Of a stretch of DNA of 64,000 nucleotides, positions 19,394 through 49,718 are shown one piece after another. A model generated the notes under the pieces. That model was not told the DNA's origin, did not search any database, and was given only the letters and a program-made list of their open reading frames with translations. The stretch spans positions 806,001 to 870,000 of the forward strand of contig OZ037842.1 of NCBI GenBank assembly GCA_964035575.1. Reading direction: 5' to 3'. The position numbers and the translations under genes are program-made. Positions within the stretch are counted from its first letter, which is position 1, and the number at the start of each line of letters is the position of its first letter. The DNA comes from Rhynchopus sp. YZ270_cl-10. Its lineage: Eukaryota.

Positions 19394-19553
19394 GAAATAG
19401 AAACGTAACACTCATCACACGATAAAACCCATGGGAGAGGTTGTAGTGAAACGCACAGTCCTCGATCTGTTTGGTGAGGAGTGGCTCTGCAGCGCGGTTC
19501 GCCCAGAACCGCAAAGTGTGTTCAAAATGCTTTGTTTCTATTTCCTCCTTCAT
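19394..19553. repeat. ~160-bp structured dispersed element, copy 2
   Basis: Homologous to 12183-12341. Confidence 0.85.
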
Positions 19554-20103
19554 TTCATGAGGACATAACAAAAACAATGAAAAAAGTGTGAACTGCAATT
19601 GGTGTTGGTGTTTGTGAATCAAAGTGAATCAAACAGACAATATGGCAACAAAAAGATGTTGTTATGTAACCCAAATGGGCAATGTTCCGCGCAGGAATTA
19701 CCATAACTGATTTCAAACACATACGCCCCTCCATGAAAAAAAAGCAAAAATAGGTGGAAATTGAGAACACCTTGCCAGACAACAGAAGACAACAGAACCC
19801 AACAAAAAGAGAGAAAAATTTTGTAAGATGAACCTGAGCCTCTCAGTCATCCTCCCAAAAAAATTTTTTTTTGGAAAGGAACGTACCCTCAATGGGGGAC
19901 ACTCGCATCTTGGGGAAATGTAATGGGTATTAGACTCTGGCATCCATTCGAATTTGGTGAAGCTAGATGACGCAAATAAAATAAAACTTTAAAAAAAATG
20001 TGCCACACCCGCATCTTTGATAGCCTCACACAAAAGAACAGAGTTTTGTTGAACACGAAACTGAAAAATACGGATGGACAGGCCCCAAATGGAGTTTCAT
20101 ATA

Positions 20104-20189
20104 CCGTATTCGTACAAATTACCGAACTTCCAGAAAAATCCTGAAAAGGTCGAACATTAGTACGGTCGATAATTTTTGTACGAATACGG
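20104..20189. mobile_element. 86-bp Tc1/mariner-superfamily-type MITE with TA target-site duplication
   Basis: TA|CCGTATTCGTACAAA ... TTTGTACGAATACGG|TA. Confidence 0.75.
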
Positions 20190-22210: not shown

Positions 22211-22538
22211 GAGGTGATCCAGCGCACACTTTTCCACACTTTTTCACACCGTGAAAACATGTGAAAATAAGTGAAAACGTGTGAAACCAAGGTGAAAATG
22301 TGTGAAATCAAGTGAAAATGTGTGAAACCAAGTGAAAATATGTGAAACCATGTGAAACCATGTGAAACCATGTGAAACCAAGTGAAAATGTGTGAAACCA
22401 TGTGAAAACACCAAGTTTTTTTTCTGGAGGAATCCACTCAGAGTGCGTGAAGCAGTTTTTTTTTCACTTTCGTACACACTTTTTCACATCGTGAAACCAT
22501 GTGAAAATGTGTGAAAAAGCGTGAGACTGGATCACCTC
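22211..22538. mobile_element. 328-bp MITE with internal (TGTGAAACCA)n minisatellite and 7-bp TSD
   Basis: TIR GAGGTGATCCAG / CTGGATCACCTC, flanked on both sides by AAAAAGT (22204-22210 and 22539-22545). Confidence 0.8.
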
Positions 22539-22613
22539 AAAAAGTCCAAAAAAATAATAATGAAATAGACCCTCCGTGTGATGCCCGTGTGTTCAGAACA
22601 CAGTACTTGTTAA

Positions 22614-24483: not shown

Positions 24484-24591
24484 TTAAGAGAACATCCCCT
24501 CCCCCAAAAAAAGAGGAAAAAAAATGATCAAAATGATCAAAATGATAAGTCTAAGCCTCTGTGCGGTAGGTACCTAATTAAAAATGGCACG

Positions 24592-25867
24592 GTCCATAAA
24601 CCACCCCCCCCAAAAGGTAACCTGGGGTCCTTATTTTTATTTCATCTGGGTTCTACTGGGACTTTCTCCCCGATTTTTTTTTTAATGAACTCAGAGTTAA
24701 GTTTCTGGGTTCAATAAAAAAAACGACGAGCAAAAAGTCCAATTGGAAATATGATGGATACCCCCCGAGAGCAAAATAAACCAACGGTAAAAATTGGTAC
24801 CCTTGGTTTCCTATAGGTTCCTATAGGAAACCTACATTTTCCCATAATTTCCCACACAACTTACTTGACAACAGGATGAAAACAAATACAAAAATGGCAA
24901 AAGTGAGTAAAACCGTGCAAGGGGCACTGGACTTTGCTAGGGCTCTGGGGGAAACGCAGTTCTCAGGGGAGAAGACTCGCAAGGAGGTTCTTGCCTACGC
25001 GAAGGCACGCAGTTGTTACCGTAGGGGTTTCCGGGAAGACGTGTGGTTCAAAGCTTTATGGAAAGCGAGAGGAATATCCCTCATCCTTCACAGGAAGAAC
25101 ACCACCCGTGGGGGACGCGCGGTCCAACTGTATTTCTGCAGTAACCTGGATGAGTGTGTGGGTGTGCCATCAGAAGGTACGTTTTGCACAAGCCTTCCGC
25201 GTGTTTGGAGGCACGGACAACGACGCCGCTGCCATTCTCCTTGCTGTAAGGGGTAAATACGCGTTGTTCACCCCTCCGTACCTTCTGATGGCACACCCAC
25301 ACACTCATCCAGGTTACTGCAGAAATACAGTTGGACCGCGCGTCCCCCACGGGTGGTGTTCTTCCTGTGAAGGATGAGGGATATTCCTCTCGCTTTCCAT
25401 AAAGCTTTGAACCACACGTCTTCCCGGAAACCCCTACGGTAACAACTGCGTGCCTTCGCGTAGGCAAGAACCTCCTTGCGAGTCTTCTCCCCTGAGAACT
25501 GCGTTTCCCCCAGAGCCCTAGCAAAGTCCAGTGCCCCTTGCACGGTTTTACTCACTTTTGCCATTTTTGTATTTGTTTTCATCCTGTTGTCAAGTAAGTT
25601 GTGTGGGAAATTATGGGAAAATGTAGGTTTCCTATAGGAACCTATAGGAAACCAAGGGTACCAATTTTTACCGTTGGTTTATTTTGCTCTCGGGGGGTAT
25701 CCATCATATTTCCAATTGGACTTTTTGCTCGTCGTTTTTTTTATTGAACCCAGAAACTTAACTCTGAGTTCATTAAAAAAAAAATCGGGGAGAAAGTCCC
25801 AGTAGAACCCAGATGAAATAAAAATAAGGACCCCAGGTTACCTTTTGGGGGGGGGTGGTTTATGGAC
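24592..25867. repeat. 1.28-kb near-perfect palindrome (arms 24592-25181 and 25277-25867, 95-bp spacer)
   Basis: The arms are reverse complements; the only difference I noticed is one base in a C/G run. Mirror ORFs at 24876+ and 25582- share about 102 N-terminal residues. Confidence 0.97.
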
Positions 25868-26580
25868 TGACCCAAATGTTTGTTACGACGCAAAACACCC
25901 TCCCCAGACTTCACGACAATTTAGCAAAAACTTATTTTGATTAGTCCAGGAAACACTAGCGGGGAGGGTGCTTGTGTGCAATGAGCTGGCCTGACGAAGA
26001 GTTACAGAAAATGGGGGGTTTTTTTTTTTATCTATTGAAGGGACAGATGGAGAAGGTCATGAAGGCAAAAGAGAGGGGGAAAAGAGAAAAGTCGGCAAGA
26101 TGATTCTAGGCCTCTTGTGCGTAGTCACCATTTAGTACCTACTACCCGTTGTGTGTGAGAGCACACACTGTGCAAAACAAAACAAAAAAAAAAGCCAAAA
26201 CAAAACAACCTCTTGAAAACCCAATGCATGAAAAATGGAGGAATAGAAACGTTGGACATCTTCTGATTTTTTTTATATTTTTTTATTTGAAAAATTGATG
26301 ACGTGTAGACACCTCGCTTTTTTTCTCGTGTGAACTACACGCATATTTTATGGTCTCTCTGGGTGCCCTGCATCTCTTTGTCTCTTTTTTTCCTTGAACC
26401 TTCGTTGCATTCAGGGTAAAAGGGTGACACAAATTTCCGAAAAACCCCGGTTTTTACACACCCTAAGTCCCTGGTTGCAATAGTAGACGTCACAGGATGA
26501 GCTCCACTATTTTGGAACGAGAGATTTATTTTTTTTTTGAACTGACGATAAAGTGCACCTAATCCTCACGAATGGTAACC

Positions 26581-26724
26581 TAGGGCTTACAAAAAGGGGG
26601 GTAAAACCCGGTCAGCCTGACCGAGTTTTCACCAAGCCTTGACCCCAACTTGGGTTAGAGACCCGGGCGCGCGACCGAGATTTGACCGGGTTTCAGTGAA
26701 ACCCCCCAAAACCTATAAGCCTTA
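26581..26724. mobile_element. Degenerate 144-bp hAT-like MITE
   Basis: Imperfect TIR TAGGGCTTACA / TATAAGCCTTA plus internal inverted GGGGGGT..AAACCCGGTCA; no TSD visible. Confidence 0.5.
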
Positions 26725-27000
26725 CCAACTGAGAAAAAAAAAAAATGTAATAGAAACGCAGTTGCTATGTAGGATTTCAGCCCTCCTCCATGAAGGTGTG
26801 TTGTGAACACCATACATCAGAATTGACAGATACAGCTGTAGCTCTTTCCCCCCCCCTCCCTCCCACCCTTTTTTTGTTTGTTTTTTTTCAGCCCCAACAC
26901 TTTCTATACAACTCATCCCCCCCCCAAAAAAAGACACACAAATCAGAATCAAAGGCTAGGATGCTTCAGAAACGGCACACCGCCCCTTTTTTTGTTGTTC

Positions 27001-27206
27001 TTTTGATAATCTGTTGGTGTTGGTAGTGTAGCTTTCCCAACAGACAGTCTTCACGTTTTTTGTTGTTGTTTTTTTTTTTGGTTTTTCGCATTTCCCTCCC
27101 GCCCCAGAGAACCCCCCAACCCCCAGGAATTTACCGTTTTCCCTTCTGACCCAACCCCCCTCCCCACTGTTGCACCTAACTCCATCTCCTTCCCCCCCAG
27201 TTGCGC

Positions 27207-27237
<31 letters not shown>

Positions 27238-28000
27238 TGCAAACACCCGCCCCCCCCTCCCTTCTTCATCAGTGTGGCAGAGCCCTACAGTTCTCACTGC
27301 TGTTTGTGCTCTGCAAATGTATGTAGGAACGTGGAGAGGACTCTGGCCTGTGGCGTGCTGAAGCCTGCAACCGATCTGAAGGGACTCTAGACAGCCCACC
27401 GTTTGTCTTGGGAAGGGGGGTTGGCGGTCCGTTTGGCAAATTGGCTGCAACTAGTTGCTTTCTCAGTCTGTTGGGGAGGGGAAGTTGGGGAGGGGAAGGG
27501 GGAAAAGAGGTTATAATAAGTTCGCAATAACGGAAAATGAATGCATCGGAGAAAACGGAACAGAAGAGAACACGATGCCACCTGGTAAATACAGAACAAC
27601 CAAAGCAGTGCGAAGGTGCAAAAATTAAAATAGAAGTTGAAAAAAACGTGCAAACTCTGTTTTGCTTTTGTTTTTTTTTGAACCACGACCGCGGGGCAGC
27701 TCCAAAAACAAAACAAAAAATCGTTTGTCACATCATAGTAACATGGTCACAACACCTCACAGAGAGAGGAAAAAATGAAGTGGAATACGAAAAAAAACGC
27801 CACTACGGACACAGGCAAATGATTCACCGAATGGTAGGGAATCTTCGGAATAATCAACAAAAAAAATTGAATGATGAAATCGTTTTTCACATGTACGCCC
27901 ATCTGATAATATAGGACGCACTGAAGAAGAAGAAAAAACGGCACATTTTTTTAGCGAAGACTGCCCTGAGCAGCTGCACTAAACCAACAGATTATCAAAA
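27001..28000. mobile_element. Candidate ~1-kb element bounded by imperfect ~30-bp inverted repeats
   Basis: ttttgataatctgttgg..tagtgtagct at 27001 and cagctgcacta..ccaacagattatcaaaa ending at 28000; related motif at 9172, 12814, 21491 and 59134. Confidence 0.45.
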
Positions 28001-28001
28001 C

Positions 28002-28039
<38 letters not shown>

Positions 28040-28684
28040 ACATGCAAAATGATACAAGCCTCGCTTAGTCACCTAACAGAACCGTTCTAGACACGACACA
28101 AAGCAAATAATCGATGTGAAGTGATTTTGATAAAAACCTAACAAACCTGAACAGAGCAACTCATAGAAGAAAAGAGAGAGGAACAACAGGCGTGCCATTC
28201 ATTGGAATGGCCTCAATACCCCCCAAAAAGAAATGTACAATTTTTCACTGACCAAAACCCCCAGACTTTTTTTTTTTTTTGTAGGAAAAAAAAAATCCTT
28301 CCCATACCCGCCTCCTTGTTTGTTTGTTTGTTTGTGTTTTTTTTTTTTTGCCCACAGACGAAAAGGTAGAAAAGTGTCCGCAGGAGGAAAAAAAAAAGGG
28401 TGAAGTAGCGCGAACGCATCTGGGACGCAGACACTGACACTCCGTGGGTTTATCGAACCCAGAAAACTTCAAGTAAGCATTCCAAAAAAAAGAAAATAAA
28501 AGTTTATAAGATGACCGCAAGCCTCTCGTGCATAGTCACCTTAAAAATCGTCATCTCCCCCCGAAAAGACCCGCAACGTTGCACTCATACCTCTCAATGG
28601 AGAGAACGGCAAGAAGAAAAAAAGTTGGTAGATGACCTAGCCCCTCTCTCTCTCTCTCTCTCTCCCATATTCCCCAGAGAAAAA

Positions 28685-31600
28685 TTATCGCTTCAAGCGT
28701 GAGGAGCGTGCAAAACGGTCATTCGTTTTGCGTGGGCTTTTGCGAGGGCTTTTGCGAGGGGTGCCGTGGCTCGGTGTTGGGCTTAACAGCGGGCTGATGG
28801 ATAGCGGGCTGTTGGAACGCGGACTCCGGCTCCGGGTTCTCTCTTTGACAGCTCCTCCACCAGGAGCTCCTTTACGCCGGTTCACGGGGTATGTGACGCT
28901 ATCACGTGGGCTGCCGAGAGGCGACCTGGCCGCACCACGTGATCGGCAAGGAGTGCCCGTGTGCGCGTCTGACGCTTGAGACGAGTGTCTCGGGCTGCGT
29001 GGCACACCAAACGTCTGCGGCCCCCCCGCCTGCCTTGCAAACGCATTCCCACGTGGACTCCTCAAAGGGCTTGTGAAAGGTTTGTAAAAGAAGTGGATGC
29101 CATACTCATCAAGAGCGTCGCTCCGACCCGCAGTCCGGTTGTGTGCGGTGAATGTGTAGTCGTGTTCCTCCCCCCGCGCAACGCTGTGGTAATAAATGAA
29201 ATAGTTTTCGTGAATATAAAAGAAAAGTTTATAAGATGAATGCAAGCCTCTCGTGCTTAGTCGCCTCATATAATGGTGGCTAAACTGAAGTGATGCAGAG
29301 AAATGGTGGGGAAAAGCCATCGATGAAAGCACAAATACCCTGCGGTCTGTAGATGTAAAAACTCAGTAGATGTAAAAAGGAAACCTAACGACGTGCCCAA
29401 AAAAATGATGATAAGAAGAAGGCCACATACGAGGTGTTCGCCAACTCATTCATCTCGTGGCTGAGCTCCAGCGGTGCACGCAGGTGTGGAGGCGGTGCGA
29501 TGTATCGCTCGCCAAGGCTTTCTCTTTCGCAGAGACTGTTCCCCAGCAGCGGTGAGAAGCCTGAGGTGCGACGGCGCTCTACGGGGCCTGTGGCACGCCT
29601 GGGTTTGCCGCGTGCGCTGTCCTCCTTCTTGTCGCCGGTGTTCTGGAGGAGAGTGGTGGTGGCGGGTGGGCAGGGTACACCGTTGGTTGAGACGGTGCTG
29701 TGCTTCTTCTTGGCAGTACGGTTCACGTCGCTTCGATTGCGCACACGGCTGCTCATTTGGTCGTCCGTCTTGCGCCGCACGAGCTTCGGCTCTGTCACGA
29801 CCCTACGTCCGGAGGGCTCGTTGAAGGTGCTCGCAAAGGCTTCCACCTCAGACGTGCGGGAGCGCGACTCTGTCGACTCCTCGTCCACAGCGTCGTCTGT
29901 GCGTGCGTCTGTCTGCTCAAAGGCACGCATTGAAGAGCCGCTCTGACGCCGCTTCCCCATCCTGCGTGTGGTGTCATTCTTGACACGCTCCGGCACAGTC
30001 CCCCTTGAGGACGACTGCGGCGCCTCAAGGCAGTCGAACGCAGTGTCCATAGTGTGCGTGCTCGTGCACATCCCCTGGCTCGTGCAAAGCCCCTTCACAG
30101 AGCTTAGAGGCGACTCGACAGTGCTGCTTGCAAGCGACGCAGCGCTGTGCGAAAAGGATTTGTTGCTGCGCGGCGTCATCGGCGAGCGACGCTCAGAAGA
30201 GGGCGACACAAGCGCCGTATCTTCGTCGCGCCCAATGCTTGTGCACAAACGCTTCTCACGCTTCGCTAGCAGCAGCTTGGACACCTTCTCGCTTGGCCGC
30301 ATCTGCTTCCGTCGTGCCTCTGCGTCGTCCGTTGCCGCCTTCGTGATCGCAAAGCGCTCTGCACTCTTCTGGATTGCCTTCATGGCATCGGTCTTCGCGT
30401 CGTCCTTCACCTTTGTCGTGTTGATATGCACCTTCCCTTCATAGACCCCAGACGACGCAAGCAGCATAGGGTCGTTTGAGGGTGTCTTGAGTGCGGGTGC
30501 CCAGACACCTCTGAAAGGAGGTGGGGCACTTTCGCCGCTGTCGCGTTGCTTGGAGCTTGAGGGCGACATGAGGGACTTGGCGTCGTCGTGTGATATCTTG
30601 CGGCCAGAGAGCCCTGCCACGCGGGGGACGAGGGAGCGGCGCCGGTCGGGCGAGATGAGATCCTGGTCAGCTGTGGATGCGGAGGCGACGGACTCTGGTC
30701 CGCACTGGTGGTGCACTCTCGGAGAGGGCGGCACTCTGCGTGCGGTGGATGCTGCCGACAGCGAGCGTGACTCTGCGAGTGGACGGCCTGGGGACACTGC
30801 ACGTGGCGAGGCACCTGGCGACATCCCACCTGGCATCGACGAACGCCGGCTCGAGGACAGTTTGTTCGGTGACGACGCTGTGATCTCCACCTGCGGCGGG
30901 CTCATTGCCTTCTCTGGCTTCCCCAACACCAACTCCGGCGCCTTTGTGATACGCGGAGACTCACTCACATTCTGACGGGGTGTCCCCTTGTTTGAAAAGC
31001 GGGGCGACCCCTTGGACCGCTGGCACTGCTCCTTTGGTGTGTCGATGCTTACGGAGCACGGCGACACGGGGCCGAGAGCGGGCGAGGTGCTGCACACCAG
31101 CGGGGACCCTTTGTGCTCCGAGGGTGGCGACGACACGTTGGGTACGGATACGGGTGATGTCACGGTTTGTGCGGGCGGCGTCTCGGTCCCCTTCATGCGT
31201 GGGGAGTGCCGTGGTGATGGCGACTTGACTCCGTCTTCTATGATGGACACACGGTGCTTTTCGCGTACCGGCGACATAGGTGCAACATGGAGTGTACCGT
31301 CACGACCTTCACGCCCTTCACGCGACACATGAGATGGAGATGCAATGGAGGTAGCCATGGGGGTCATCTGCGACGCCGATATGGGAGTCACCACCGACTC
31401 ATGCACCGGAGACATCTTGGCATGCGACGGTGAATGCGACTGCGAATGCGATGGCGACTGCGACGGCGAAGGGCTCGTCAACGATGGCGACGGAGGGACC
31501 TGCACCGTCGGATGCATTGAAGCGTTGACGGGCGTCTCGCGGTCCACCTCCCACTCCTTGTCCAAGGTGCAGAACGACTCGTTCGGTATTGTCTCTACTT

Positions 31601-34466
31601 CCTTCGAGAAGTCGGGCAACGTTTTTGACATCATAGATGGATTGGGGGACCGCATAATGGAGCCGTTCCTTGGCTGCGACAACGACGAGTTGAGAGTCGG
31701 TCGTGGCGAGACCCCACGCACGATGGCAGGATTGCGGAGAAATTGTGGTGCTGGGAAGGCGTCTCGCGTCTCCTTCTTACTGAGAATGGGCGACATCTGT
31801 GACGAAGACAAGGAGCCGTCTCGCGAGTCTTTGAACCGCATGGACTGCCCCGAGCGCTTCAAACTTTGCTCCTTGATGGCACGTGGCACAGCAGGGCCAC
31901 GTGGCTTCTGCGGTGAACACGACGACGAAGAAGAATCGACCTCATCTCCAAACGCAAGGTTCGGCCTCGACAACCCCGGACAAAAGTCCGACCCATCTGA
32001 ATCCACCCACGCCCCTGTTGATACATCCCCCGACCCACGCTTCGTGCCCGACCCCTTCTTCCCCTTCTTGCCCTTCTTAGGCTTCTTCGTCACCGTCGCC
32101 ATCTTCAACGCAGCGGCCGCACGCACAGCAGCACCATGCGGGCTGGTAGGCGAATCCATCTTAGGAGCATCCCCTCTCGCCAAAGAATGCGACACCCGTT
32201 CCGGCGACTGGCTCGGCAAGGTTTTGATGGAGCTGCCCAGAGGAAGGCTTGGCCGCTTCCTGATGGTGGCGGAACGCTTTGCCCTGGTGAGGGTGGGGGC
32301 CGTTTTGACGAAGGTTTTGGAGCGCTTTTTGAGACGCTCTGTGCCGTCGGAGTTGGTGGCAGCGTTCTCGTCTGCGGAGACGTAGGCTTCAAGCGCGTAG
32401 CTGTGACGCTCGAAGTCAACTTCGAGGTGCGCGAGACGCTCGCTGGCGACCTTTCCGTTCTGCTGGAGGTCGAGTACGTGGAGGATGAGCTTGGCGAGGG
32501 CACCCATGCGTTGCAGCTGCAGCTTGGCCTTGCGTTTGCGTCTGTCGATACTGACGACGTTCTCGAGGAGCTCTGCTGCAAGGTTCAGGCAGACTTCAGA
32601 CTTGTTGCATATTCGGTTCAGGGACGACAGGTTGGGTAGCTCGCCTGCTCTGATGACAGCTTCGTCAAGGTCGTTGCGCATCTCGCCTAGGTGCTTCATT
32701 TGTGTGCGACGTTCCTTCTCCTTCTTAAGCATCTTGCGTGTCGACTCTATACGGTCACGCCCCATGACGAGGTCGCCTGGTGTGTGTATGCCCGAGATGA
32801 TGCCTGTGGAGTTCAGGGTTACGACACCTCCATACGAGATGCCCACGAAGGAGAGCTCGCGCTCCATGTAGTAGTCCTCTGGCGGCTCGAAGACAATTGT
32901 GATTGTGCGTTTGTCGCCTGTGGGCATCGGGTCTGCAGAGTACACAGCCACGTCGTCGCAGCTCCGCACAAACCATCCCTTGAAGCGCACCAGGTTCTCG
33001 CGTGCAGCAGGGGAACCGATCTCGACACCGTCGACCACAACGTTCGCGCCCATCTCACGCATCTTCAGACCCATGAAACGTTCGCCACGTGTGTTGCAGG
33101 TCACGGTCTCTTGTTCGGGCTGGGGGATCTCAGGGATGAAGAAGCGGGGTGCGCGGGGGACGGGGTTTGCACCGTCGCCTTCGTCATCTACGATGCTGTC
33201 TGTGCGTGTTGCGGAGGGTGTGGGTGAGGAGGAGGGCATGACGCAGGCCTGCAGGACGTCGAACTGCGTAGGCGGCGCAGTGGGCACGGACCCACGCAGG
33301 CGCTGACAGATGAGCCACACATCATCGGGTTTGCAGAGGGATGCGGAGTCGTCTTTTTCGAAGATCTCCATGCAGATGCCACCGTTCGCCCGGTCGCAGG
33401 CGAAGTACTCATACGCATGCGAGGAGTCGATGATCTCAATCTTCAAATCCGCACCAGCCGTGATGGCTGCCCCCATAACAGCGGCATAGTCGCTGTCAAC
33501 CACATCCGGAGTCAGCCGAATGCTCTTCACAAACTCATGAAGATGCGGCATCCGACTGGCACCACCAATCAGCAACGCCGTCGACACACTCGGCACCTTC
33601 ATCACCATAGCCCGCAGCAACCCCTTCAGCGGCGTCATCACCATGACAGACGCCTCCTCAAGGTCATGCCTGTTTACAGTTGTGTTAAACTCCTTTACCT
33701 GAAAGGTCGTCTCGTTGAGAGAAGAAAGCTCTTTCTTTGCCTTCTCCGCTGCGCTGACGAGAAGAATATCGGGCACCTTACCACTGGCACGCGAGAGGTT
33801 TGAGGACATTGCAAGATCCACTGCGTACCCACCCTCTGCAATCGCCCTGCTCTCCACGAGCTCTACCTTCAGATGGTGCGGCGACACCCCACAATACGTA
33901 CGCACCACGGACACAGAGGTGTAGCTACAACCTGCATCCACCACCAAAAACTCTCTTCGCGCATCGTATGTTCCGAGTACACGTGTACAATGTGCCCAGT
34001 ACACTGCTGCCATGGCAGGGGAAGGCACGATGTTGATTCTTGAAAACCCTGCAGACTGTGCGGCGGATGTCAACCGTTCTCTTTCCAAAGAGGTGAGGGA
34101 GAGTGGGAGTGAAATTGTGGCCCGCGACACTTCGCCCTGGAGGTATGCTACAGAGGCGTTTCGCTGCACATCGAGCAACACTGCTGCTAGTTCATCAACA
34201 CTGAATTGCCTGCTTTCACTGAGGGAGTGGTGGAACATCATCGGCCTGCGCGCTGAGAGGGACCGCGTCAAGTACCGTGCCACGTTGTGATGGCGGGATT
34301 CCAGCTCCTTCACAGCCTCTCGTCCAGTAAGAAGGTGGTCCCCCATCGCCACGATATTAGTGAATCCTGCACCAGGGATTTGCTGCATGCGTCCATTTCT
34401 CCACACATATGCCCGCAAATTTTGTGTCCCAAAATCCAGACCCACCGGCGGGCTTTCCCGGTTCAT
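28685..34466 (-). CDS. Atypical Hsp70-family protein (~1840 aa): divergent NBD, PDZ-like insert and long Ser/Pro-rich tail; two exons (34466-29431, 29183-28685)
   Basis: VGLDFGTQN, VVDAGCSYT, AEKAKKELSS and LIGGASRMP Hsp70 NBD motifs. The intron TC|GTATGT...CCACAG|C joins the 1695-aa ORF in phase to the 28685 ORF (SVARGEEHDY...). Confidence 0.8.
29184..29430 (-). other. GT-AG intron (247 nt), containing a hairpin-family copy at 29231-29267
   Basis: GTATGT donor, CACAG acceptor, phase 2 consistent with both frames. Confidence 0.8.
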
Positions 34467-35452: not shown

Positions 35453-36085
35453 CTATCTTCCGTACTTCTGGAAGTCCCATTCACAGTTATCAAGCGGGCA
35501 GACCTGTGGAGCGGTTTTTTTTTCAATTGTTTATTTGAAATAATTCGGCTTGAAATACCGGCCTCGGGAGGAAATAATATTTGTTTCATTATGAAAGATT
35601 TTGTGACAGCCTTCTCCCTATAACGTACAGAGTGCTGCAAGAGGTGCAAGGATTTGGCAGTATAGCAGAATGTAGGGAGTATTTCAATATGTGCATCCGA
35701 TAAATTGATAGAATGTAATGAAGAAAACGGAGGTTTATCAAAAGGAAGTCTAAAAGAAAGAAGTTGAAAGTGCAAACGACAAAGAAAAGGAAAGATAAAG
35801 TTGCCATACCCGTCTTGTCTTGAGCCAACGGGATATGCAGTGGAAGTGGAAGGCGTGGTCGCACACACCCCACGCGACGGTGCATTCTTCGGAGGTGGTT
35901 GACATCTGGTTTGCTTGGCACTCGATGCACAGCTCCATGATGTGGTTCCTGCAGATGGCGCAGGTGTCAACAACGATGTCCCATGCCCAGAGGGCCACTG
36001 CGTTCCACTTCTTCACCTCGAAGCGGTTCTTGGGTGCTGCCTTCTTCTCCACCACGGCGCCAGCGGCTTCGCTTGTGTCGGCCAT
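35453..36085 (-). CDS. RBX1: RING-box protein 1 (108 aa), two exons (36085-35810, 35503-35453)
   Basis: [40 protein letters not shown]...[16 protein letters not shown]; after the intron (CGG|GTATGG...CCACAG|) it reads [16 protein letters not shown]. Confidence 0.98.
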
Positions 36086-36195: not shown

Positions 36196-36565
36196 GAGCC
36201 TGAGCCACCCACCCCCATCAGGAATGTGACCATGTGACAGACAGCATGTCATCAACCGCTGTGTCCAGTGTTCATCAAGGTGTGCTCAGCAGAGTGTGCA
36301 GGCAGGCATGCAGAGAATAAGCCCTCTTGAGGTTGCAATGCGCACATTGCAGGCTCCATGACTGTGATCCAAAGAGACAGCACGCACACCTGCCTGCGCA
36401 CCTTCACGAAGAAGGGCACTGCCACACGGCAGCTCTCCTCTGGAGATGGCAGGGGCGCACAGCTCTGTGAACACTGAGGGACTTTACCCAAAAGACTGCG
36501 TAGGGTGCATGTCTTCTGCGGAGCCTTCTGCAGCCGTCGCCACAACTCTATTTCATCATTGCACG
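36196..36565. repeat. 370-bp direct repeat, copy 1 (copy 2 at 49349-49718)
   Basis: Apparently identical from gagcctgagccaccc to catcattgcacg, offset 13153 bp. Confidence 0.95.
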
Positions 36566-37105
36566 TTTGTGGTGTTGTCAGAACCTTGGAAGCAAAACGG
36601 AATAATCTTTGTTTTTCGTATCCACTTTTCATAATTCGAAACGCTTGAGATTCTAAATGACCGTTGACTCTTCTGTTGATAGCTAGGAATGAAATGGTGC
36701 AACGGACACAAATATCACAAAAAAATAAGAAGTTCAGCAAAAGAGCACTTGAAGGACGAATGAGCTTCGCAGCACACACGTCAGAGAGAAAAAATAAAGA
36801 GAGTTCGGTGAGATGAGCCTCAGACTCTTGTGCTTAGTCATTTGGTGTTCCCGAAACCTGGGAAAGAACATGTCCAAGACGTGTTATCGGTAGCGGGTAC
36901 ACCAAAAGCCAAACGACTTAGAAAACAGAGCCTGCGCAGATAGATGGCAACGCAACTGTTCTAAAAAAATGTATGAGGGAAAAATAAAAGAAAAGTTTGC
37001 AATACGAACAGGCGCACACATAAAAAAATAACAAAACAAAAAAATACACACAAACTACAGCACACAACGTACACACAACGACTGCACACCCGTAAAGAGA
37101 CACGA

Positions 37106-40100
37106 CTAATACGTGCGAGCACTGCAGACAAGATGCCTCCAGTCAGCCTCACGCAAGGTCTGTTTTGACACGTCCCCCCTGTAGCTTTTGAGTGCGTCCG
37201 TCAGCTGCTCGACCAGCGCAATGTCGCGCTGCTCCTCTTCTGGATAGGCAACACCGAACATGTCTTCATAAAGCGACGAGAGCGAGATGAAGGGGTACTG
37301 CGAGAGCCCCGCTGGCCTGTCGTGGCCCACGACCACTGTGTTGGCGTCGAGGTGCGACGCCTGCGCTGCTGCGTTGAAGGGAGCTGCTTTGAGGTGGAGC
37401 AGGTCGAGCTGTGTGAAGGCAGAGGTGGCGCCGTACTCAGGCACAATGGCACGCCAGTACTGCTGCAGGGTGTGCGGGACAAGTGTCTCCGGTGAGTGTG
37501 CAAACGAGGGTGTCTGCCACATCCGCAGTGTCGTGGCGTACAGAAGCTCCTCTGGGTTTGCCTTCAGGAACGCAGACAGCGAAGCGGCCTCACTCACAGG
37601 CGCCTCCCGCCCTGCTGTGTACGCAACAGCAGCGAGAAGCCTGTACACCCTTGCAATGTTCTTGCGCCGCTTCTTGGTCCCCACAAGACGGCCCCGCTCC
37701 CAGTCCACAGAGTGCATGTCAATCACCTCCTCAAGGCCGCCCTCTGGCATGCCCGGGTACGTCTTCACCTCCTGCATGAAGCGCTCCTGCAGGCCCGACA
37801 CAAACCGTTTGTAGGTCTGGAAGTTGACGTACATGTCAAGGAAGTAGATGCGGAAGCCAGACTTGAACCTCACGTCCGGACGTGGCACCGATGCCCACGC
37901 GCCGTGGCAGTCCATCACCACTGCGGCAAGGCTGCGCTTCTCAAAGAACTCCGCCGCAAAGCCAAGGATGCCGTCAAGCCACCCAGACCCCATCAGGTCA
38001 AACGGCACCTCCTCAAGCGAGAGCATGTCGATGTCGACGTAGCACCGGAACACTGCCCCACGCACCTCTTCCATGTAGAAGTCTGCGCCCCCCTCGAAGC
38101 TCGCACGCCAGTAGCGCAGGTACTCGTCCACGTAGCCGTCGGGGATGTAGTAGCGTCCGCCCTTCTGGCAGATGTGCGTCGGTGCCGTGTCCAGGAGCTG
38201 TGCGACCTTCGCCTGGCCCTGCGACTTCACCAGCTTCGCTGTCAGGTGCAGAAAGAACGTCTCCAGCGCGTCCTGTGGTGTGTACGTGTCGAGCTGCCGC
38301 CGTCCCCCAAGCGGGTGCGGCTCGAGGAGCCAGCGCGGGGTCGACACAGCGGCAAGGGTGGCTTCAGGCTCGTGTGTCCAGAGGTTCGAGAGCACGTCCA
38401 CATCGCTGCTGCAGGCAGGGAAGGCCACCTCGTCCACGACGTCCATCATCCCCGTCGCCCCGTTCTTGCAGAGGTACTGCACGCCGGTCACCATCGCCCC
38501 TTCGCTGTCCGCACGGCCCGCAAGGCTCTTCTTGAAGTCAGCGAGCACCGCATCAGCCTCCTTTGCGGTAGTGACGCCAAGCGACAGATGTGCCTCAAAG
38601 TCGCGTTCCTCTTCGTTCGGGAAACGCGTCTTGACACTCTTCCGCAGGCGCCGGATGAAGCAGTCGTCCTCGTCGCCTGGGGCCAGGTACATGATGACCC
38701 TCCCGCGCTCCTTGTCCTTCTTTGTGTGGATTCTGCTCAGGTTCAGGCGGAACGGCGCCATGTCGGCCTCCCTGACCGCCTCCTCCAGAAGCAGGCGTGC
38801 CTCGGGCCACGCCTCCTTCTCCACGAAGGGCCACATGATGTTCATGTGCACAGGCCAGTGCTTCGCGCTCTTCAGGTACGTCCCGCTGATGCCGCGCAGA
38901 CGCCGTGCCGCCACAGCCTCAGACACCACCAACGCAAGCGCGCACGTCCTGTGGTACCCACCGGTGTAGGCAGGGAGCGGCGCAGCCCTCGCCCCCTCTA
39001 CCATGTTGCCCTCCCTCCCCCACACGAGGCCGTCGTCTGCCTGCTCTGCACACACCGCCACCTGCAGGAGGAGGCCGTAGTGGTCGCTCTGTGGCAGAAG
39101 CGGCAGCAGCGGGCCTGCAACGCATGCAGGTGGTGCTTTGTCAAACGCATTGGGGGTTGCGAAGAAGGAGGCCGCACCGCTGTGTGCCCCCACACGCCCC
39201 ACAATCGCCGCATTCACCTCGCCCACGAGGCGTGTCATCTGCTCCTCGCAGGACGCACACCCCGACACCGTTGTGTGCAGGTCCACATGCGGCAGCCCGC
39301 CAGTGTCGTCCACGCCATGCGCACGCAGCGACATCTGGTGTGCATGCATCGTGGCGCCCAGAAGCCAGTCCGCCTTCTCTCCTAGTTCAGAGTCGCGCGT
39401 CCGCAGGCGGTCTGCACAACACTCCTGCGGCGTCTGCACATCCACAAGCACCACCAAGCCCGCCTTCCCGCTGCTCCGCAGCACGTTTACTGTCGTCTGC
39501 AGCTCCTCAACCGACATGTGCGCTGCGTCTGCAACAATGCATCTGCTCCCCCCCTTCACAGCAGCGCTCAGGCGCGTCAGGAAGTTGCGTGTCGTCGACT
39601 TCGCATCCATGCTCACAAAGGCCCCGTCCACTGCCGTGCACAGCCTCTGGCTCAGCACAGACTTCCCGCTGCACTGCGGCCCCCGCACAATGACCTGCAC
39701 CTGCTCCACATCTGCACCTGGGGCGACGTCCGTGTGCCCCTTCGTTGCGAACTGCGCGCTGTCGTGGGGCTGCACCCACGACGACACGCTGTCCCCAATC
39801 ACGTCGATGCTCTCCACAGCAACGTCCGCCGCTCGGAACATAACCCTGTCAAGACGACGCGACAGGCCCGACCTGGAGTTGATCGACGCAAGTGGGTTCC
39901 GCTCCGGTGTGAACGTGTCCACAGCACCGCCCCTGCCGTGCTTCACCAGGAACGCGTCCTGGAAGTTGCCCCAGTCAGTTGCATCGTCCTCAGGGCCCTC
40001 CCCAAAGTTGTAGTCGCCAATCAGAAATGCGTTTGGCACCTTCCGCACAAGGTCCATCATCCCGCTGATCTGCTTTGCACGCTTCTCCTGGGCCTGCGCA

Positions 40101-40987
40101 GCCATGTCCGACGTGAGGTGCAGACCCACAACGCTCACCGGCACACCCTCCAACTTCATGTCCAGGAGCACCGCGTGCACATTCGGGTTGAACGAGTAGT
40201 GCTTCGCACACTTCACAGAGGCCGCACTCGTCTTCGACACCATCAGAATCGAGTCCGACCCGCCCTTCACGGCAGTGTGGTCCGTCAGGAAGTAGTTCTG
40301 CCGCACCCCTGCGTGCTGCAGGAGGTGCTCCGTGAAGACGCTGTCGCACTCCTGCAAACACACAACGTCCACCCCTGCCTGCGCAACCACACCAAGAAGG
40401 CGGTCGTACCGCTGTGCCCCACGCAGCACAAACGCGTCTTCAAAGTACTTCCCAAACAGAACGTTCCACGACGCCATTCGCAGCTTTGCACCAGCAGGCT
40501 GGTCGTCCGCAGGCTCCGTGCGCGAAAACTCCTGTGGCTCCCACACACCGGTATCGGGGTTGAACGCCGACAGGTATGTGCTCTTCGTATGGGGGAAGGA
40601 TATGCGCCCCTTCGACGCCCCCGAAGACGCCACCTTAGGCCCTGCAGAAGGTGCAGCCTCAAGCGTCCCGTTGAAGAGCTCCTTCGTCAGGTCAAGTCTC
40701 GTCTCTCTGTCCCAAAACACCACACCGCTCGCACGGTACTGCTGCACTCTGTGCCACGGAATCGAATCAAAGTCGTTCTTCCCGCCTTGGTGCCACTTTC
40801 TCAGGGCAACCCACTTCAGGCCAATGAACCTGTCTGTGTAGCCCACCTCTATCGTGTCCTGGTCAATCGTAGGGTGCCACAGCAGCTTCCCAAACATCAC
40901 ATCCGAGCGGACAAGCTTTTTGTCGTCTGCTGCCTCTTCCTTCGCCTTTGGTGCATCTCTCTTTGGGCTGCGGCGTGACATTGGCAC
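37106..40987 (-). CDS. Multidomain RNA end-healing/repair protein: MJ1316 + EEP (kinase inserted) + P-loop kinase + 2H phosphoesterase + AEP/PrimPol-like domain
   Basis: MJ1316 (VGYTDRF...IPWHRV...WDR); EEP (SWNV, LQE, GDYN, RLDR, SDH); Walker A GPQCSGKS; 2H motifs PVHMN and AHLSLG; AEP-like THICQKGGRYYIP, YVDID, KSGFRIYF, VIDMHSV..GRLVGTKK. Confidence 0.85.
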   Translation of the reverse strand: MPMSRRSPKRDAPKAKEEAADDKKLVRSDVMFGKLLWHPTIDQDTIEVGYTDRFIGLKWVALRKWHQGGKNDFDSIPWHRVQQYRASGVVFWDRETRLDLTKELFNGTLEAAPSAGPKVASSGASKGRISFPHTKSTYLSAFNPDTGVWEPQEFSRTEPADDQPAGAKLRMASWNVLFGKYFEDAFVLRGAQRYDRLLGVVAQAGVDVVCLQECDSVFTEHLLQHAGVRQNYFLTDHTAVKGGSDSILMVSKTSAASVKCAKHYSFNPNVHAVLLDMKLEGVPVSVVGLHLTSDMAAQAQEKRAKQISGMMDLVRKVPNAFLIGDYNFGEGPEDDATDWGNFQDAFLVKHGRGGAVDTFTPERNPLASINSRSGLSRRLDRVMFRAADVAVESIDVIGDSVSSWVQPHDSAQFATKGHTDVAPGADVEQVQVIVRGPQCSGKSVLSQRLCTAVDGAFVSMDAKSTTRNFLTRLSAAVKGGSRCIVADAAHMSVEELQTTVNVLRSSGKAGLVVLVDVQTPQECCADRLRTRDSELGEKADWLLGATMHAHQMSLRAHGVDDTGGLPHVDLHTTVSGCASCEEQMTRLVGEVNAAIVGRVGAHSGAASFFATPNAFDKAPPACVAGPLLPLLPQSDHYGLLLQVAVCAEQADDGLVWGREGNMVEGARAAPLPAYTGGYHRTCALALVVSEAVAARRLRGISGTYLKSAKHWPVHMNIMWPFVEKEAWPEARLLLEEAVREADMAPFRLNLSRIHTKKDKERGRVIMYLAPGDEDDCFIRRLRKSVKTRFPNEEERDFEAHLSLGVTTAKEADAVLADFKKSLAGRADSEGAMVTGVQYLCKNGATGMMDVVDEVAFPACSSDVDVLSNLWTHEPEATLAAVSTPRWLLEPHPLGGRRQLDTYTPQDALETFFLHLTAKLVKSQGQAKVAQLLDTAPTHICQKGGRYYIPDGYVDEYLRYWRASFEGGADFYMEEVRGAVFRCYVDIDMLSLEEVPFDLMGSGWLDGILGFAAEFFEKRSLAAVVMDCHGAWASVPRPDVRFKSGFRIYFLDMYVNFQTYKRFVSGLQERFMQEVKTYPGMPEGGLEEVIDMHSVDWERGRLVGTKKRRKNIARVYRLLAAVAYTAGREAPVSEAASLSAFLKANPEELLYATTLRMWQTPSFAHSPETLVPHTLQQYWRAIVPEYGATSAFTQLDLLHLKAAPFNAAAQASHLDANTVVVGHDRPAGLSQYPFISLSSLYEDMFGVAYPEEEQRDIALVEQLTDALKSYRGDVSKQTLREADWRHLVCSARTY

Positions 40988-41088
40988 AAAGGGTGAAAAG
41001 GGTGAACGGAAAGAGGAGAGAGGTTTGCGCCTGATGGAGGTAGGGTAAGGGTTAGGGGTGAAGGTGAAGGGTATGAGGACGTGGCCAA

Positions 41089-43449
41089 GGGTAGGTGGGG
41101 GTGTCTGTGGTTTGTTTGACTACTTTAGCGATTCAGTGTTAACACACAAACGATGCTTCGTAGGATGGGATATAAAAAGGGCATCACAAAGAATCATTGT
41201 TTCAGCCATTGGTGTGGCACAGCAAAACAATGCATCAAAGGGAAATCAGCAAGATGCACTGTCCTCACGGATGTGGACATCTGCAAAAAGAAGAATGATA
41301 ATGCAAACGCCTCTGGGACGCAGGCAGTCAACAAAGAAAAGCAAATAAACAAAGAAATCCTGAGAGATGAATGTGGTTTGAGTGACACACATCTTTCATA
41401 GAAAGGCTGGAGCAGATAATGTAGCCTAAGTTTGCTTTCCCCGAACGCATCACATCCGCAAAAAAAAGAACAGATAAGCAAGTGTGATCATCAGGGTTTG
41501 CAAACACAATGCCTGTAGACAGCCCGTCTCAGGTTGGCCACTGGCCGCCATTTTTTGGGTGTCGCAGCATCGACAGGCAGGCTTCACATCTAAAAAGGGG
41601 TGGCAGGGAAGGGCGGGGCAGGGAAGGGACACAGGCTAAGCTCAGATAAGCGGGGGTGTCGGTGGGCTTGCACCATCGACACAGATCGTCCTGCACACCC
41701 CACATGTCACCTGCTCAACACAGTGCTTCCCCTCACCGCAGTCAACACCGTCACACATGAACCTGGCGCAGGGAAGAGGGGGGAAGTTCCCACACTCACA
41801 CAGGGCAGGGTTCCAGCATCCTGTCTCACACGTCTGGGCAGGTGTCGCAGCTGTGCACTCACGTGGTGTGCACACACCAGGTGCGTCGCATGTGGGCTCC
41901 GAGCAGGCACACTCAAGTCCCTCCAAGCACGCATGTCTCTCACACTCAACGGTGAAGCCACCACACGACGCCCCCTCGTCCTGCTTCTTCGTGCACACCT
42001 TCTCCTCCAGAAGGCACGTCGCAAGCCCTGTCACCGGGTCTGTTCCCTTCGTGCTCCTGCACCACCACCCAAGTCCGCAGTCCAGGTCGCTCTCACACGG
42101 CCCCATCGTTGGCACAGGGGCGGGGACGGGTGCTGGAGGCGCCTCGACACATTGGAAGTGGCACCCGTTGCACTGCACAGGCATGCAGGTGAAGCCACTT
42201 GTGCAGGCAAGAGGGCTGTCGCAGGGGTTCTCAGTGCATGTGGTGCCTTGGTCAAGCTCACACGAGCACGTGTCTGGGTTGTAGCACTCAGTGAAGTGGC
42301 ATCTCCTGTCCTTGTGGATTGTGTACGGTGTGCATGCAGGGGTCGGTGCAGGGGTTTCAACACACGTGCCAAACGGGAGGCAGTACGAGTTGGAGAAGTA
42401 GTGCACACACTGCAGCGAGGCACCACAGCAGTTCGGTCTGTGTGTGCACACATCGAAGAAGTGAAGCACGGGGCCAAGAGTTGTGCAGGTGCTTGTCTCC
42501 ACCACACACGCCTCACTCGCCGAACAGTCCGTCTTGTCGAGACAGAAGCCAGACCCCTGAACCAACATCACACATCCGAGAGCAGCAAACACACGCAGCA
42601 TTGTGAAGGTGGGTGAGTCTTGTATTTTCAGCAAATTCTGTTGGGTGTTGTGTTGCGGTGTGTGTGTGCAGAGTGGAAGAGGAAGGGAAAAGAGGGACAG
42701 AGGTGACCTTATTTCTTCGTTCTTAATCTTACTATTCTACTTAGCTGCATGGAACAGGGTTTCTTTAGGGGAAAGACATGGCGAAATATACCACACAGAA
42801 ACAGAATACATTCTGCATAGGACCCAAATGAGACGTTTGGGTGCAAATAAAACTAAAACACAAGGGAAGACATACTTAAGGTCGCTGAGCACGCCCGTGT
42901 TAGGGGAGCGGCGCCCATAAGTGATGGTAATATGACATTCGTTTTTCTGATTATAACAGGGCTGCGCTGTTGCCTCGCAGCAGTGGTTTTGAGCCTGTTA
43001 GCTGTTTGGGCAATACACCACTTCGTTGCCGACTGACAGTCATCACAAAAGATGCACACACAACACTATGCACTCTGCAAACGGCAGGTGGCAATATATA
43101 GACAACACATACGAGTTGCAAGCAATAGAAAGGCTCAATAAGATGCACCTAGGACTCTTGTGCTTAGTCACATAACAAGAAACGAAAGTACCGACCAAAA
43201 AAAAAGGCCAAAAATCGTGAACATTGTGTGTTAGGGGAATCCACATGAAACAGTCCAGTCTGAGTGTCACTAACGTACAGACCTCTTGGATGCAGACACG
43301 TGAATTAATGACCTTGCAGGGTGAACAGGTCTCTAAGATGCACATCTTTTTCACACAAAAATGAGAGGAAAACAAAGAAACTTAAAAGCTTCGTGTGCTT
43401 CGCGTGCACATCTCGCACTAACATTTGTTTGCAAACACTGCCCGTGTGC
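41089..43449. repeat. 2.4-kb direct duplication, copy 2
   Basis: Homologous to 1526-3905. Confidence 0.97.
41642..42601 (-). CDS. Secreted cysteine-rich protein (319 aa), copy 2
   Basis: Protein identical to 2081-3040. Confidence 0.85.
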   Translation of the reverse strand: MLRVFAALGCVMLVQGSGFCLDKTDCSASEACVVETSTCTTLGPVLHFFDVCTHRPNCCGASLQCVHYFSNSYCLPFGTCVETPAPTPACTPYTIHKDRRCHFTECYNPDTCSCELDQGTTCTENPCDSPLACTSGFTCMPVQCNGCHFQCVEAPPAPVPAPVPTMGPCESDLDCGLGWWCRSTKGTDPVTGLATCLLEEKVCTKKQDEGASCGGFTVECERHACLEGLECACSEPTCDAPGVCTPRECTAATPAQTCETGCWNPALCECGNFPPLPCARFMCDGVDCGEGKHCVEQVTCGVCRTICVDGASPPTPPLI

Positions 43450-49348: not shown

Positions 49349-49718
49349 GAGCCTGAGCCACCCACCCCCATCAGGAATGTGACCATGTGACAGACAGCAT
49401 GTCATCAACCGCTGTGTCCAGTGTTCATCAAGGTGTGCTCAGCAGAGTGTGCAGGCAGGCATGCAGAGAATAAGCCCTCTTGAGGTTGCAATGCGCACAT
49501 TGCAGGCTCCATGACTGTGATCCAAAGAGACAGCACGCACACCTGCCTGCGCACCTTCACGAAGAAGGGCACTGCCACACGGCAGCTCTCCTCTGGAGAT
49601 GGCAGGGGCGCACAGCTCTGTGAACACTGAGGGACTTTACCCAAAAGACTGCGTAGGGTGCATGTCTTCTGCGGAGCCTTCTGCAGCCGTCGCCACAACT
49701 CTATTTCATCATTGCACG
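49349..49718. repeat. 370-bp direct repeat, copy 2
   Basis: Matches 36196-36565. Confidence 0.95.

What the first reader, a model, noticed from the sequence alone, without database searches (positions are those of the whole stretch)
37106..40987. Five-domain RNA repair fusion: MJ1316 + EEP + kinase + 2H phosphoesterase + AEP/PrimPol-like domain
Seen: motifs for an MJ1316 domain (~40910-40690), an EEP phosphoesterase, a PNK-type P-loop (GPQCSGKS, ~39661-39683), two 2H motifs (HMN ~38845, HLS ~38585) and a C-terminal AEP-like domain (DID ~38030). Known: MJ1316, EEP, 2H and P-loop kinase domains recur in eukaryotic RNA end-healing fusions such as LENG9 and fungal proteins that also carry a poly(A) polymerase. 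Inference: one chain could recognise a cyclic-phosphate end, open and remove it, phosphorylate the 5'-OH and add nucleotides, using a primase-polymerase where relatives use a poly(A) polymerase or ligase. I see no ligase domain. I cannot confirm from sequence alone that this architecture is undescribed.
Basis: partly seen in the sequence, partly recalled or inferred. Interest (0 to 1): 0.85.

Follow-up and report, generated by a model that had tools for sequence, protein, structure and literature searches.

The report
Diplonemid RNA-end repair fusion, nested kinase
This intact gene of a diplonemid protist joins a predicted broken-RNA-end reader, two phosphate-removing domains and a primase-type polymerase in one chain, with a kinase nested inside one phosphatase; it likely cleans and extends broken RNA ends, and it is a lineage-specific variant of a catalogued family for which no biochemical test was found.

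Summary
Real: one 1291-codon ORF (37106-40981, minus strand) with MJ1316, EEP, AAA_33, 2H and PPL4 Pfam hits above cut-off. Fold models confirm the AEP (ASFV C962R, Z 17.5), a TDP2-like EEP (Z 28.2) and a Trl1-type RNA kinase fold (Z 15.9). Full-length orthologues, two from transcriptomes, occur in five other diplonemid-clade proteins.

Corrections: (1) the kinase sits inside the EEP domain, before its catalytic SDH strand; (2) the core MJ1316-EEP-2H-PPL4 is not unique: it occurs in euglenids and kinetoplastids, and MJ1316-PPL4 in Heterolobosea. Divergent AEPs in RNA-repair fusions were predicted in 2016 (paper not readable here), and this scan met PPL4 before in Naegleria. (3) AEP motif II His is Arg in 39 of 49 family hits.

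Only the six-member diplonemid clade has the kinase. It is the least conserved catalytic domain; this gene keeps its expected residues, most orthologues do not.

Most likely an RNA end-healing and 3'-extending enzyme in which the AEP replaces the poly(A) polymerase of bacterial and fungal relatives; no activity is shown. New variant of a known kind.

The parts
37106..40981 (-). Single ORF, 1291 aa, no intron needed
   Evidence: 36% identity over 98% of its length to a complete D. japonicum transcript ORF
41031..41080 (-). Pyrimidine tract ending in CAG 49 nt before the ATG: candidate splice (likely spliced-leader) acceptor; inferred
   Evidence: read from the sequence; not tested
40673..40915 (-). 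MJ1316 domain (aa 23-103), predicted RNA cyclic-end reader; most conserved domain (58% mean identity)
   Evidence: Pfam PF04457 E 1.3e-9
39797..40486 (-). EEP phosphoesterase, main body (aa 166-395), TDP2-like; N173, E211, H288, D323, N325, D378, R379 invariant in 6 of 6
39197..39703 (-). P-loop kinase (aa ~427-595) inserted inside the EEP fold; Walker A G434-S441, putative general base D459, Walker B D485, lid R525xxxR529
   Evidence: AAA_33 E 1.1e-9 alone; Trl1/Mucorales kinase folds Z 13.7-15.9
39047..39106 (-). Last EEP strand with the catalytic S632-D633-H634 motif, after the kinase
   Evidence: aligns to TDP2 PSDH; the model's TDP2 match spans aa 164-643
38417..38950 (-). 2H phosphoesterase (aa ~678-855), motifs H712xN714 and H798xS800
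   Evidence: Pfam PF13563 E 7.2e-12; H712, N714, H798 invariant in 6 of 6; not modelled
37496..38344 (-). PPL4-type AEP domain (aa ~880-1162): D983xD985, motif II KSGFR with R1044 for His, D1088
37109..37495 (-). C-terminal ~130-aa domain, seen only in the diplonemid clade; family unassigned (weak DEDDh-exonuclease-like fold lead)
   Evidence: (Z 4.5-4.9)

Best explanation
This is the diplonemid member of a Discoba family of MJ1316-PPL4 fusion proteins, and it likely heals and then extends the ends of broken RNA. Shown: one chain, five recognisable domains, the kinase nested in the EEP fold, and intact metal-binding residues in EEP and AEP. Inferred steps: (1) MJ1316 binds an RNA ending in a 2',3'-cyclic phosphate; (2) the 2H domain opens the ring; (3) the TDP2-like EEP removes the remaining phosphate, or another end-blocking group, to give a 3'-OH; (4) the PPL4 AEP adds nucleotides to that 3'-OH, the job that a poly(A) polymerase domain would do in bacterial and fungal relatives; (5) the kinase gained in diplonemids phosphorylates the 5'-OH of the other fragment. 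With no ligase on board, the products (3' tail, 5' phosphate) would go mainly to decay, or to a separate ATP-dependent ligase. They would no longer suit the RtcB ligases that diplonemids encode. Step 5 is the weakest and may work in only some species.
For: Domain swap: P0004-P0006 have MJ1316-EEP-2H-poly(A) polymerase in the same order; 8 of 30 scanned AEP relatives have MJ1316-EEP-2H-PPL4 and 8 have MJ1316-PPL4. PPL4 thus stays with an RNA-end domain from Naegleria, Acrasis and Percolomonas to euglenids and kinetoplastids. No helicase family was listed for any of the 30, unlike C962R (PMC10516667, passages). AEP D983, D985 and D1088 are invariant in 6 of 6 diplonemid proteins. Among kinase folds, tRNA-splicing RNA 5'-OH kinases rank first (9r3w Z 15.9, rmsd 3.2, 187 aligned; 9drz Z 14.9, rmsd 2.5, 152), and a profile finds the Rhizopus RNA kinase 9d8a at E 0.00095. 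ANGEL2, titled a 2',3'-cyclic phosphatase, shows the EEP fold can do this chemistry (Z 20.6). Trl1 kinase licenses decay of 5'-OH fragments in yeast (10.1101/465633, abstract).
Against: No activity is measured for any member that I could find. The EEP is closer to TDP2, a 5'-tyrosyl DNA phosphodiesterase (Z 28.2), than to ANGEL2 (Z 20.6). The closest solved AEP, C962R, prefers dNTPs and shows no terminal transferase activity (PMC10516667, section 19 and passages). Motif II His, which contacts the triphosphate in C962R, is Arg here. The kinase has 24% mean identity among six diplonemid proteins; the general-base Asp is seen in 2 of 6 and the RxxxR lid in 1 of 6. PSTK (Z 13.7) and gluconate kinase (Z 12.8) are not far behind, so the fold does not fix the substrate. 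The first 2H motif is HxN, not HxT/S. Some D. ambulator Trinity isoforms split the ORF (351 aa and 884 aa).
Confidence: 0.55

Rival explanations
1. It is a DNA end-repair enzyme in the spirit of bacterial LigD: the TDP2-like EEP removes 5' adducts, the kinase makes 5' phosphates and the AEP fills gaps with dNTPs.
For: Top EEP matches are TDP2 by Foldseek, VIA and profile; top AEP matches are DNA enzymes C962R, human PrimPol and poxvirus D5/E5; N-termini are Lys/Arg-rich, as a nuclear signal could be (inference).
Against: MJ1316 and 2H are RNA-end domains; MJ1316-PPL4 persists without EEP in Heterolobosea; the same EEP partners a poly(A) polymerase in relatives; the best kinase folds are RNA kinases.
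Confidence: 0.17
2. The RNA-end role is right, but the AEP no longer polymerises; it binds the RNA or a nucleotide, so the protein only heals ends.
For: Motif II His is Arg in 39 of 49 hits; motif III Asp is Asn in P0029, P0043, P0044, P0048 and P0045.
Against: All three acidic residues are invariant in the diplonemid clade and the AEP keeps 51 invariant positions of 232; motif II Arg or Lys occurs in the DR0530-like AEP family, and PolpTN2 is active with Gln there (PMC5862659).
Confidence: 0.13
3. The inserted kinase is a decaying passenger or pseudokinase: the protein works as the four-domain euglenid form does, and the insert only binds nucleotide or RNA. This is compatible with the rest of the best explanation.
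For: Lowest identity of the catalytic domains (24%); only R433, G434, G439, K440, L447, D485, G534 and A543 are invariant; the AAA_33 hit passes cut-off only in the window protein, with E 0.007-0.25 or no hit in the five others. The insertion loop tolerates low-complexity inserts of up to ~120 aa in kinase-less relatives.
Against: Walker A Lys and Walker B Asp are kept in 6 of 6 proteins that are only 32-39% identical overall; the window protein keeps D459 and RxxxR.
Confidence: 0.35
4. It degrades or makes small nucleotide signals (2'-5' or cyclic oligonucleotides) in an antiviral conflict rather than processing long RNAs.
For: Weak AKAP7_NLS hits for the 2H domain in orthologues; PDE12 among EEP folds (Z 20.8); the AEP is of giant-virus affinity.
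Against: The AEP tree follows host groups, as for a vertically kept gene; neighbours are ordinary genes; the poly(A) polymerase swap points to RNA 3' ends.
Confidence: 0.07

Closest known systems
Pfam PF18188 PPL4 (Prim-pol 4) fusion proteins of Discoba: MJ1316-EEP-2H-PPL4 in Entosiphon, Ploeotia and Papus; EEP-2H-PPL4 in Perkinsela KNH09658.1; MJ1316-PPL4 in Naegleria lovaniensis, Acrasis and Percolomonas
   Same: Same domain order, same Arg-type motif II, one AEP clade; the euglenozoan group has support 100/99.
   Different: Diplonemid members add a ~245-295-aa kinase insert in the EEP and a ~130-aa C-terminal domain, and lack the N-terminal RWD-like region seen in Entosiphon (weak Pfam hit, just under cut-off) and, by eye, in Papus and Perkinsela.
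MJ1316-EEP-2H-poly(A) polymerase fusions of bacteria and fungi (P0004-P0006, P0009, P0013)
   Same: First three domains homologous and, in P0004-P0006, in the same order; 27-30% identity.
   Different: Poly(A) polymerase instead of the AEP; no kinase; 25-37 residues between the EEP DR and SDH motifs against 244-297.
Fungal and plant Trl1 tRNA ligase (LIG-KIN-CPD) and the stand-alone Mucorales RNA kinase
   Same: A P-loop kinase fold plus a 2H domain, the classic end-healing pair (PMC11571804 passages).
   Different: No ligase; extra EEP, MJ1316 and AEP; kinase nested and partly degenerate; GTP specificity not tested.
TDP2 (5'-tyrosyl DNA phosphodiesterase 2)
   Same: Closest solved EEP: Z 28.2, rmsd 2.2 A over 238 residues; N, E, H, D-x-N, DR and SDH motifs align.
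   Different: About 20% identity; the four-residue loop before TDP2's PSDH holds a whole kinase here; substrate not shown.
ASFV C962R and NCLDV D5-like primase-helicases; human PrimPol
   Same: Closest solved AEP folds: Z 17.5, rmsd 3.3 A over 224 residues; PrimPol Z 12.7.
   Different: No helicase, and no Pfam PriCT2 hit; motif II Arg for His; 9-18% identity; fused to RNA-end domains.

Membership tests
AEP superfamily | AEP fold | tested here: met
   Model pLDDT 94.2; Foldseek E 4.7e-11 to C962R; VIA Z 17.5
AEP superfamily | Motif I DxD and motif III Asp | tested here: met
   D983, D985, D1088 invariant in 6 of 6 diplonemid proteins
AEP superfamily | Motif II His (sxH) | tested here: not met
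   R1044; Arg in 39 of 49 hits, His in 7, Asn in 1, 2 fragments lack the site. PMC5862659 reports AEP families without this His, so this does not exclude the superfamily.
AEP superfamily | Nucleotidyl-transfer activity | not testable with these tools
   needs an assay
Pfam PPL4 (PF18188) | Score above gathering threshold and placement in the PPL4 clade | tested here: met
   84 bits against 25; groups with PPL4 proteins apart from the His-type outgroup, 99/98
C962R/D5-like replicative primase-helicase | AEP followed by PriCT2 and SF3 helicase | tested here: not met
   No helicase or PriCT Pfam hit; only ~130 aa follow the AEP. The Atlas gave PriCT_2 for that tail at 0.88 or less, a lead only.
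EEP phosphoesterase, TDP2-like | EEP sandwich with N, E, H, D, N, D, H catalytic set | tested here: met
   N173, E211, H288, D323, N325, D633, H634 invariant in 6 of 6; fold
TDP2 proper | 5'-phosphotyrosyl phosphodiesterase activity | not testable with these tools
   about 20% identity only
RNA 5'-OH kinases (Trl1 KIN / Pnk type) | P-loop kinase fold with Walker A Lys-Ser/Thr | tested here: met
RNA 5'-OH kinases (Trl1 KIN / Pnk type) | General-base Asp after strand 2 and RxxxR lid | tested here: inconclusive
   D459 and R525/R529 are present in the window protein by position (criteria from PMC11571804), without a residue-level superposition; Asp in 2 of 6 and RxxxR in 1 of 6 clade members
2H phosphoesterase | Two Hx[TS] motifs | tested here: inconclusive
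   Both His invariant; first motif is HxN, as in P0006 and most euglenozoan members, second HxS; Pfam above cut-off; fold not modelled
Trl1-type tRNA ligase | ATP-grasp ligase domain in the same chain | tested here: not met
   No ligase family in Pfam or NCBIfam; the assigned domains leave no room for one
DEDDh exonuclease (C-terminal domain) | RNase H-like fold with DEDD residues | tested here: inconclusive
   Three DEDDh rows at Z 4.5-4.9 over aa ~1164-1270, within noise; no Pfam or PDB sequence support

The most novel reading that the evidence does not exclude
A DNA primase of giant-virus type was turned, early in Discoba, into an RNA 3'-end nucleotidyltransferase marked by an Arg in motif II. 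Diplonemids then completed it by nesting an RNA 5' kinase inside the TDP2-like phosphatase, so that one chain heals both ends of a broken RNA and tails or fills it in without a ligase. It would be a primase-fold enzyme dedicated to RNA repair or decay, competing with RtcB for the same ends.
Probability: 0.3. Interest if true: 0.8.

Novelty: new variant of a known kind. Interest (0 to 1): 0.47.

Why it matters
I found no biochemical test of any PPL4 protein or MJ1316-EEP-2H fusion in the library searched. This gene is intron-free, models with high confidence and is the most complete version, so it is a good handle to test whether an AEP can act as an RNA terminal transferase and what the Arg for His change does. 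The nested kinase is a clear case of an end-healing module added to a repair protein in one lineage and then eroded. Diplonemids rely on RtcB ligases and have 3'-phosphate/5'-OH RNA ends in their mitochondria (PMC12699882), so an enzyme that converts such ends would decide between ligation and decay. Nothing here places the protein in mitochondria.

Tried and rejected
Primary paper: Burroughs and Aravind 2016 (PMC5062991) is not held, so whether it shows the four- or five-domain form is unknown to me; its supplements may bear on novelty. Literature searches: MJ1316 gave 2 papers; LENG9 + cyclic phosphate 0; PPL4/PPL3/PrimPol/Naegleria/Trypanosoma 0; DIPPA_01689 0; searches listed nothing on this architecture by title or abstract start.

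Expression in this organism: no RNA holder listed. Run X3 has a contig lacking the 306-nt intron of the neighbouring Rbx1 gene and a gap-free 4029-nt contig over 36843-40881, but run X2 has a contig with the same ends and run types are unrecorded, so this is not used as evidence.

Prokaryotic or viral PPL4 members: none confirmed in viral contigs (75 and 54 pattern matches) or genome contigs (25); these scans reach close relatives only. Metagenomes gave 4 loci of 37 matches; the one read, L002, looks eukaryotic.

Donor of the kinase: no hit at E 0.1 among 132 candidates; phmmer against the PDB found nothing meaningful. C-terminal domain: unassigned. Mitochondrial role: DIPPA_01689 is absent from three supplementary files of PMC12699882 where a control id was found; one file was cut when stored, so this is a weak negative. 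A second copy of the gene in the window: none. No whole genome was held, so ligase partners in this organism could not be checked. No complex prediction was run, as no binding claim is made.
Full report
Observation. The window holds one ORF of 1291 codons at 37106-40981 on the minus strand. Pfam gives MJ1316, Exo_endo_phos, AAA_33, 2_5_RNA_ligase2, PPL4 and AEP_C962R above their curated cut-offs, and no ligase. Named orthologues are from Diplonema japonicum, D. ambulator and D. papillatum, so the window is most likely from a diplonemid (inference). The neighbours are ordinary genes on the same strand: Rbx1, a cysteine-rich protein, an MMADHC-like and an Hsp70-like protein.

One chain. A complete Trinity ORF from D. 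japonicum (1260 aa) aligns over 98% of the protein at 36% identity. D. ambulator has a 1259-aa isoform. Two unnamed ENA proteins and D. papillatum DIPPA_01689 also run full length; Pfam did not score the 2H domain of the last, though its two His motifs align. Against this, other D. ambulator isoforms give a 351-aa and an 884-aa piece, broken around aa 346-376; these may be assembly or allelic forms. Transcription in the window's own organism could not be shown.

The kinase is nested. In TDP2 the last catalytic motif, PSDH, follows the DR strand after a short loop. In kinase-less relatives the DR-to-SDH distance is 25-119 residues (19 proteins); in six diplonemid-clade proteins it is 244-297 (the script's value of 26 for P0020 was a false pattern match, its SDH is at 639). 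The AlphaFold model of aa 20-650 (pLDDT 76.4, 11 sequences) aligns to zebrafish TDP2 from aa 164 to 643 with Z 28.2 and rmsd 2.2 A over 238 of 250 residues, so the strand after the kinase completes the EEP fold. The insert matches RNA 5'-OH kinases best: Trl1 LIG-KIN Z 15.9, Lichtheimia kinase Z 14.9, Candida-type fungal RNA kinase Z 13.7. PSTK (13.7) and gluconate kinase (12.8) follow closely. A profile finds the Rhizopus RNA kinase at E 0.00095, and the Atlas gives AAA_33 clusters at 0.92-0.93.

How intact is the kinase? PMC11571804 (passages) names the P-loop, an essential general-base Asp and two lid arginines four residues apart. The window protein has K440-S441, D459 just after strand 2, D485 and R525xxxR529; these assignments are by position. 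Across six clade members Walker A Lys and Walker B Asp are invariant, but the Asp is seen in 2 of 6 and RxxxR in 1 of 6. Mean pairwise identity is 24%, against 58% for MJ1316, 44% for the AEP, 39% for the EEP and 35% for the 2H domain. The kinase may be active here and eroded elsewhere.

The AEP. The model of aa 870-1291 is confident (pLDDT 94.2, 38 sequences) and matches ASFV C962R, human PrimPol and poxvirus D5/E5. The three metal-binding Asp residues are invariant in the clade. Motif II reads KSGFR. Among 49 hits of a full-library search this position is Arg in 39, His in 7, Asn in 1 and missing in 2 fragments (P0057 and P0065 read from the alignment). Five of the seven His rows are the weakest, outgroup hits. 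In C962R the His binds the triphosphate, and the enzyme prefers dNTPs and shows no terminal transferase activity (PMC10516667, passages and section 19). PMC5862659 (passages and section 8) reports Arg or Lys at this site in the DR0530-like family and an active enzyme with Gln, so Arg does not mean a dead site.

Family and history. I scanned 30 of the 43 non-diplonemid hits against Pfam: 8 MJ1316-EEP-2H-PPL4, 4 EEP-2H-PPL4, 2 2H-PPL4, 8 MJ1316-PPL4, 6 PPL4 alone and 2 His-type AEPs; none had AAA_33. Of 20 proteins looked up, named members are Entosiphon, Ploeotia, Papus, Perkinsela (annotated 'polynucleotide Adenyltransferase'), Naegleria lovaniensis, Acrasis, Percolomonas and D. ambulator. An HMM of the diplonemid insert found no kinase match in 68 other stored proteins (best E 0.053, on the SDH tail). 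An AEP tree of 39 rows (9 short or partial rows and P0052 left out) puts the six kinase-bearing proteins in one clade (100/100) inside a euglenozoan group (100/99), with Heterolobosea outside; long branches affect the outgroup only. This fits vertical descent in Discoba and one insertion in a diplonemid ancestor (inference). Bacterial-type relatives P0004-P0006 have the same first three domains with a poly(A) polymerase in place of the AEP.

Mechanism. The domain swap with poly(A) polymerase and the constant link to MJ1316 argue for RNA 3' ends. PMC6514570 (passages) says MJ1316 recognises 2'-3' cyclic ends and is fused to diverse RNA repair domains. The likely order is bind, open the ring (2H), strip the phosphate (EEP), extend (AEP), with the kinase treating the 5'-OH partner. 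Each chemical step is inferred. Diplonemids encode three RtcB ligases, which join 3'-phosphate and 5'-OH ends (PMC12699882, passages and section 36), and a deviant RNA ligase 2 (PMC4599027, abstract). Healed ends would suit the latter, or decay, as for Trl1 kinase in yeast no-go decay (10.1101/465633, abstract). The main rival is DNA end repair, since TDP2 and C962R are DNA enzymes.

Novelty. PMC5862659 states that Burroughs and Aravind described several divergent AEP families in multidomain predicted RNA-repair proteins, primarily in kinetoplastids. That PPL4 is one of them is my recall; the paper is not held. Earlier scan notes already file Naegleria PPL4 genes as catalogued but untested, and one names an Angomonas MJ1316-EEP-2H-PPL4 protein; I confirmed that architecture in other taxa, not in Angomonas. 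What I could not find described is the kinase nested in the EEP, the diplonemid C-terminal domain and the family-wide Arg in motif II.

Verdict. A real, conserved gene; a new variant of a known, untested kind. Interest 0.47.

Noticed in passing
window 1526-3905 and 41089-43449: A 2.4-kb segment is duplicated at 98.4% identity; each copy holds a 319-aa cysteine-rich protein with a hydrophobic N-terminus and no Pfam hit. It ends about 110 nt upstream of the fusion gene's ATG.
   Followed up: partly
window 36196-36565 and 49349-49718: A 370-nt stretch is repeated at 100% identity.
   Followed up: no
window 35501-36085, minus strand: Rbx1 gene with a 306-nt GT-AG intron, seen removed in a contig of run X3.
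   Followed up: partly
window 29385-34466, minus strand: 1693-aa protein with a divergent N-terminal Hsp70-like domain (E 6e-18) and a long Ser/Pro-rich tail.
   Followed up: no
window 4603-5499, minus strand: Ubiquitin-like domain (weak) fused to BspA-type leucine-rich repeats.
   Followed up: no
window about 16000-29800: Gene-poor, lower-GC stretch rich in high-copy repeats by contig depth.
   Followed up: no
window 36843-40881: Contig depth over the gene is about 1.5-2 times that of flanking contigs in runs X1 and X2. The tool warns that depth is no copy number; a second copy elsewhere is only a possibility.
   Followed up: no
P0029, P0043, P0044, P0048 (kinetoplastid-type clade): AEP motif III Asp is Asn in all four, and EEP SDH is SSH in three, which suggests loss of activity in that branch.
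   Followed up: partly
P0023, P0029, P0043, P0044, P0048 N-termini: An RWD-like region precedes the repair domains (weak Pfam hit in P0023 only; others by eye), a possible link to ribosome-associated quality control.
   Followed up: no
L002 5803-6897: Stand-alone Arg-type PPL4 gene (364 aa) next to a TFIIS-like gene in a eukaryote-like metagenome contig.
   Followed up: no
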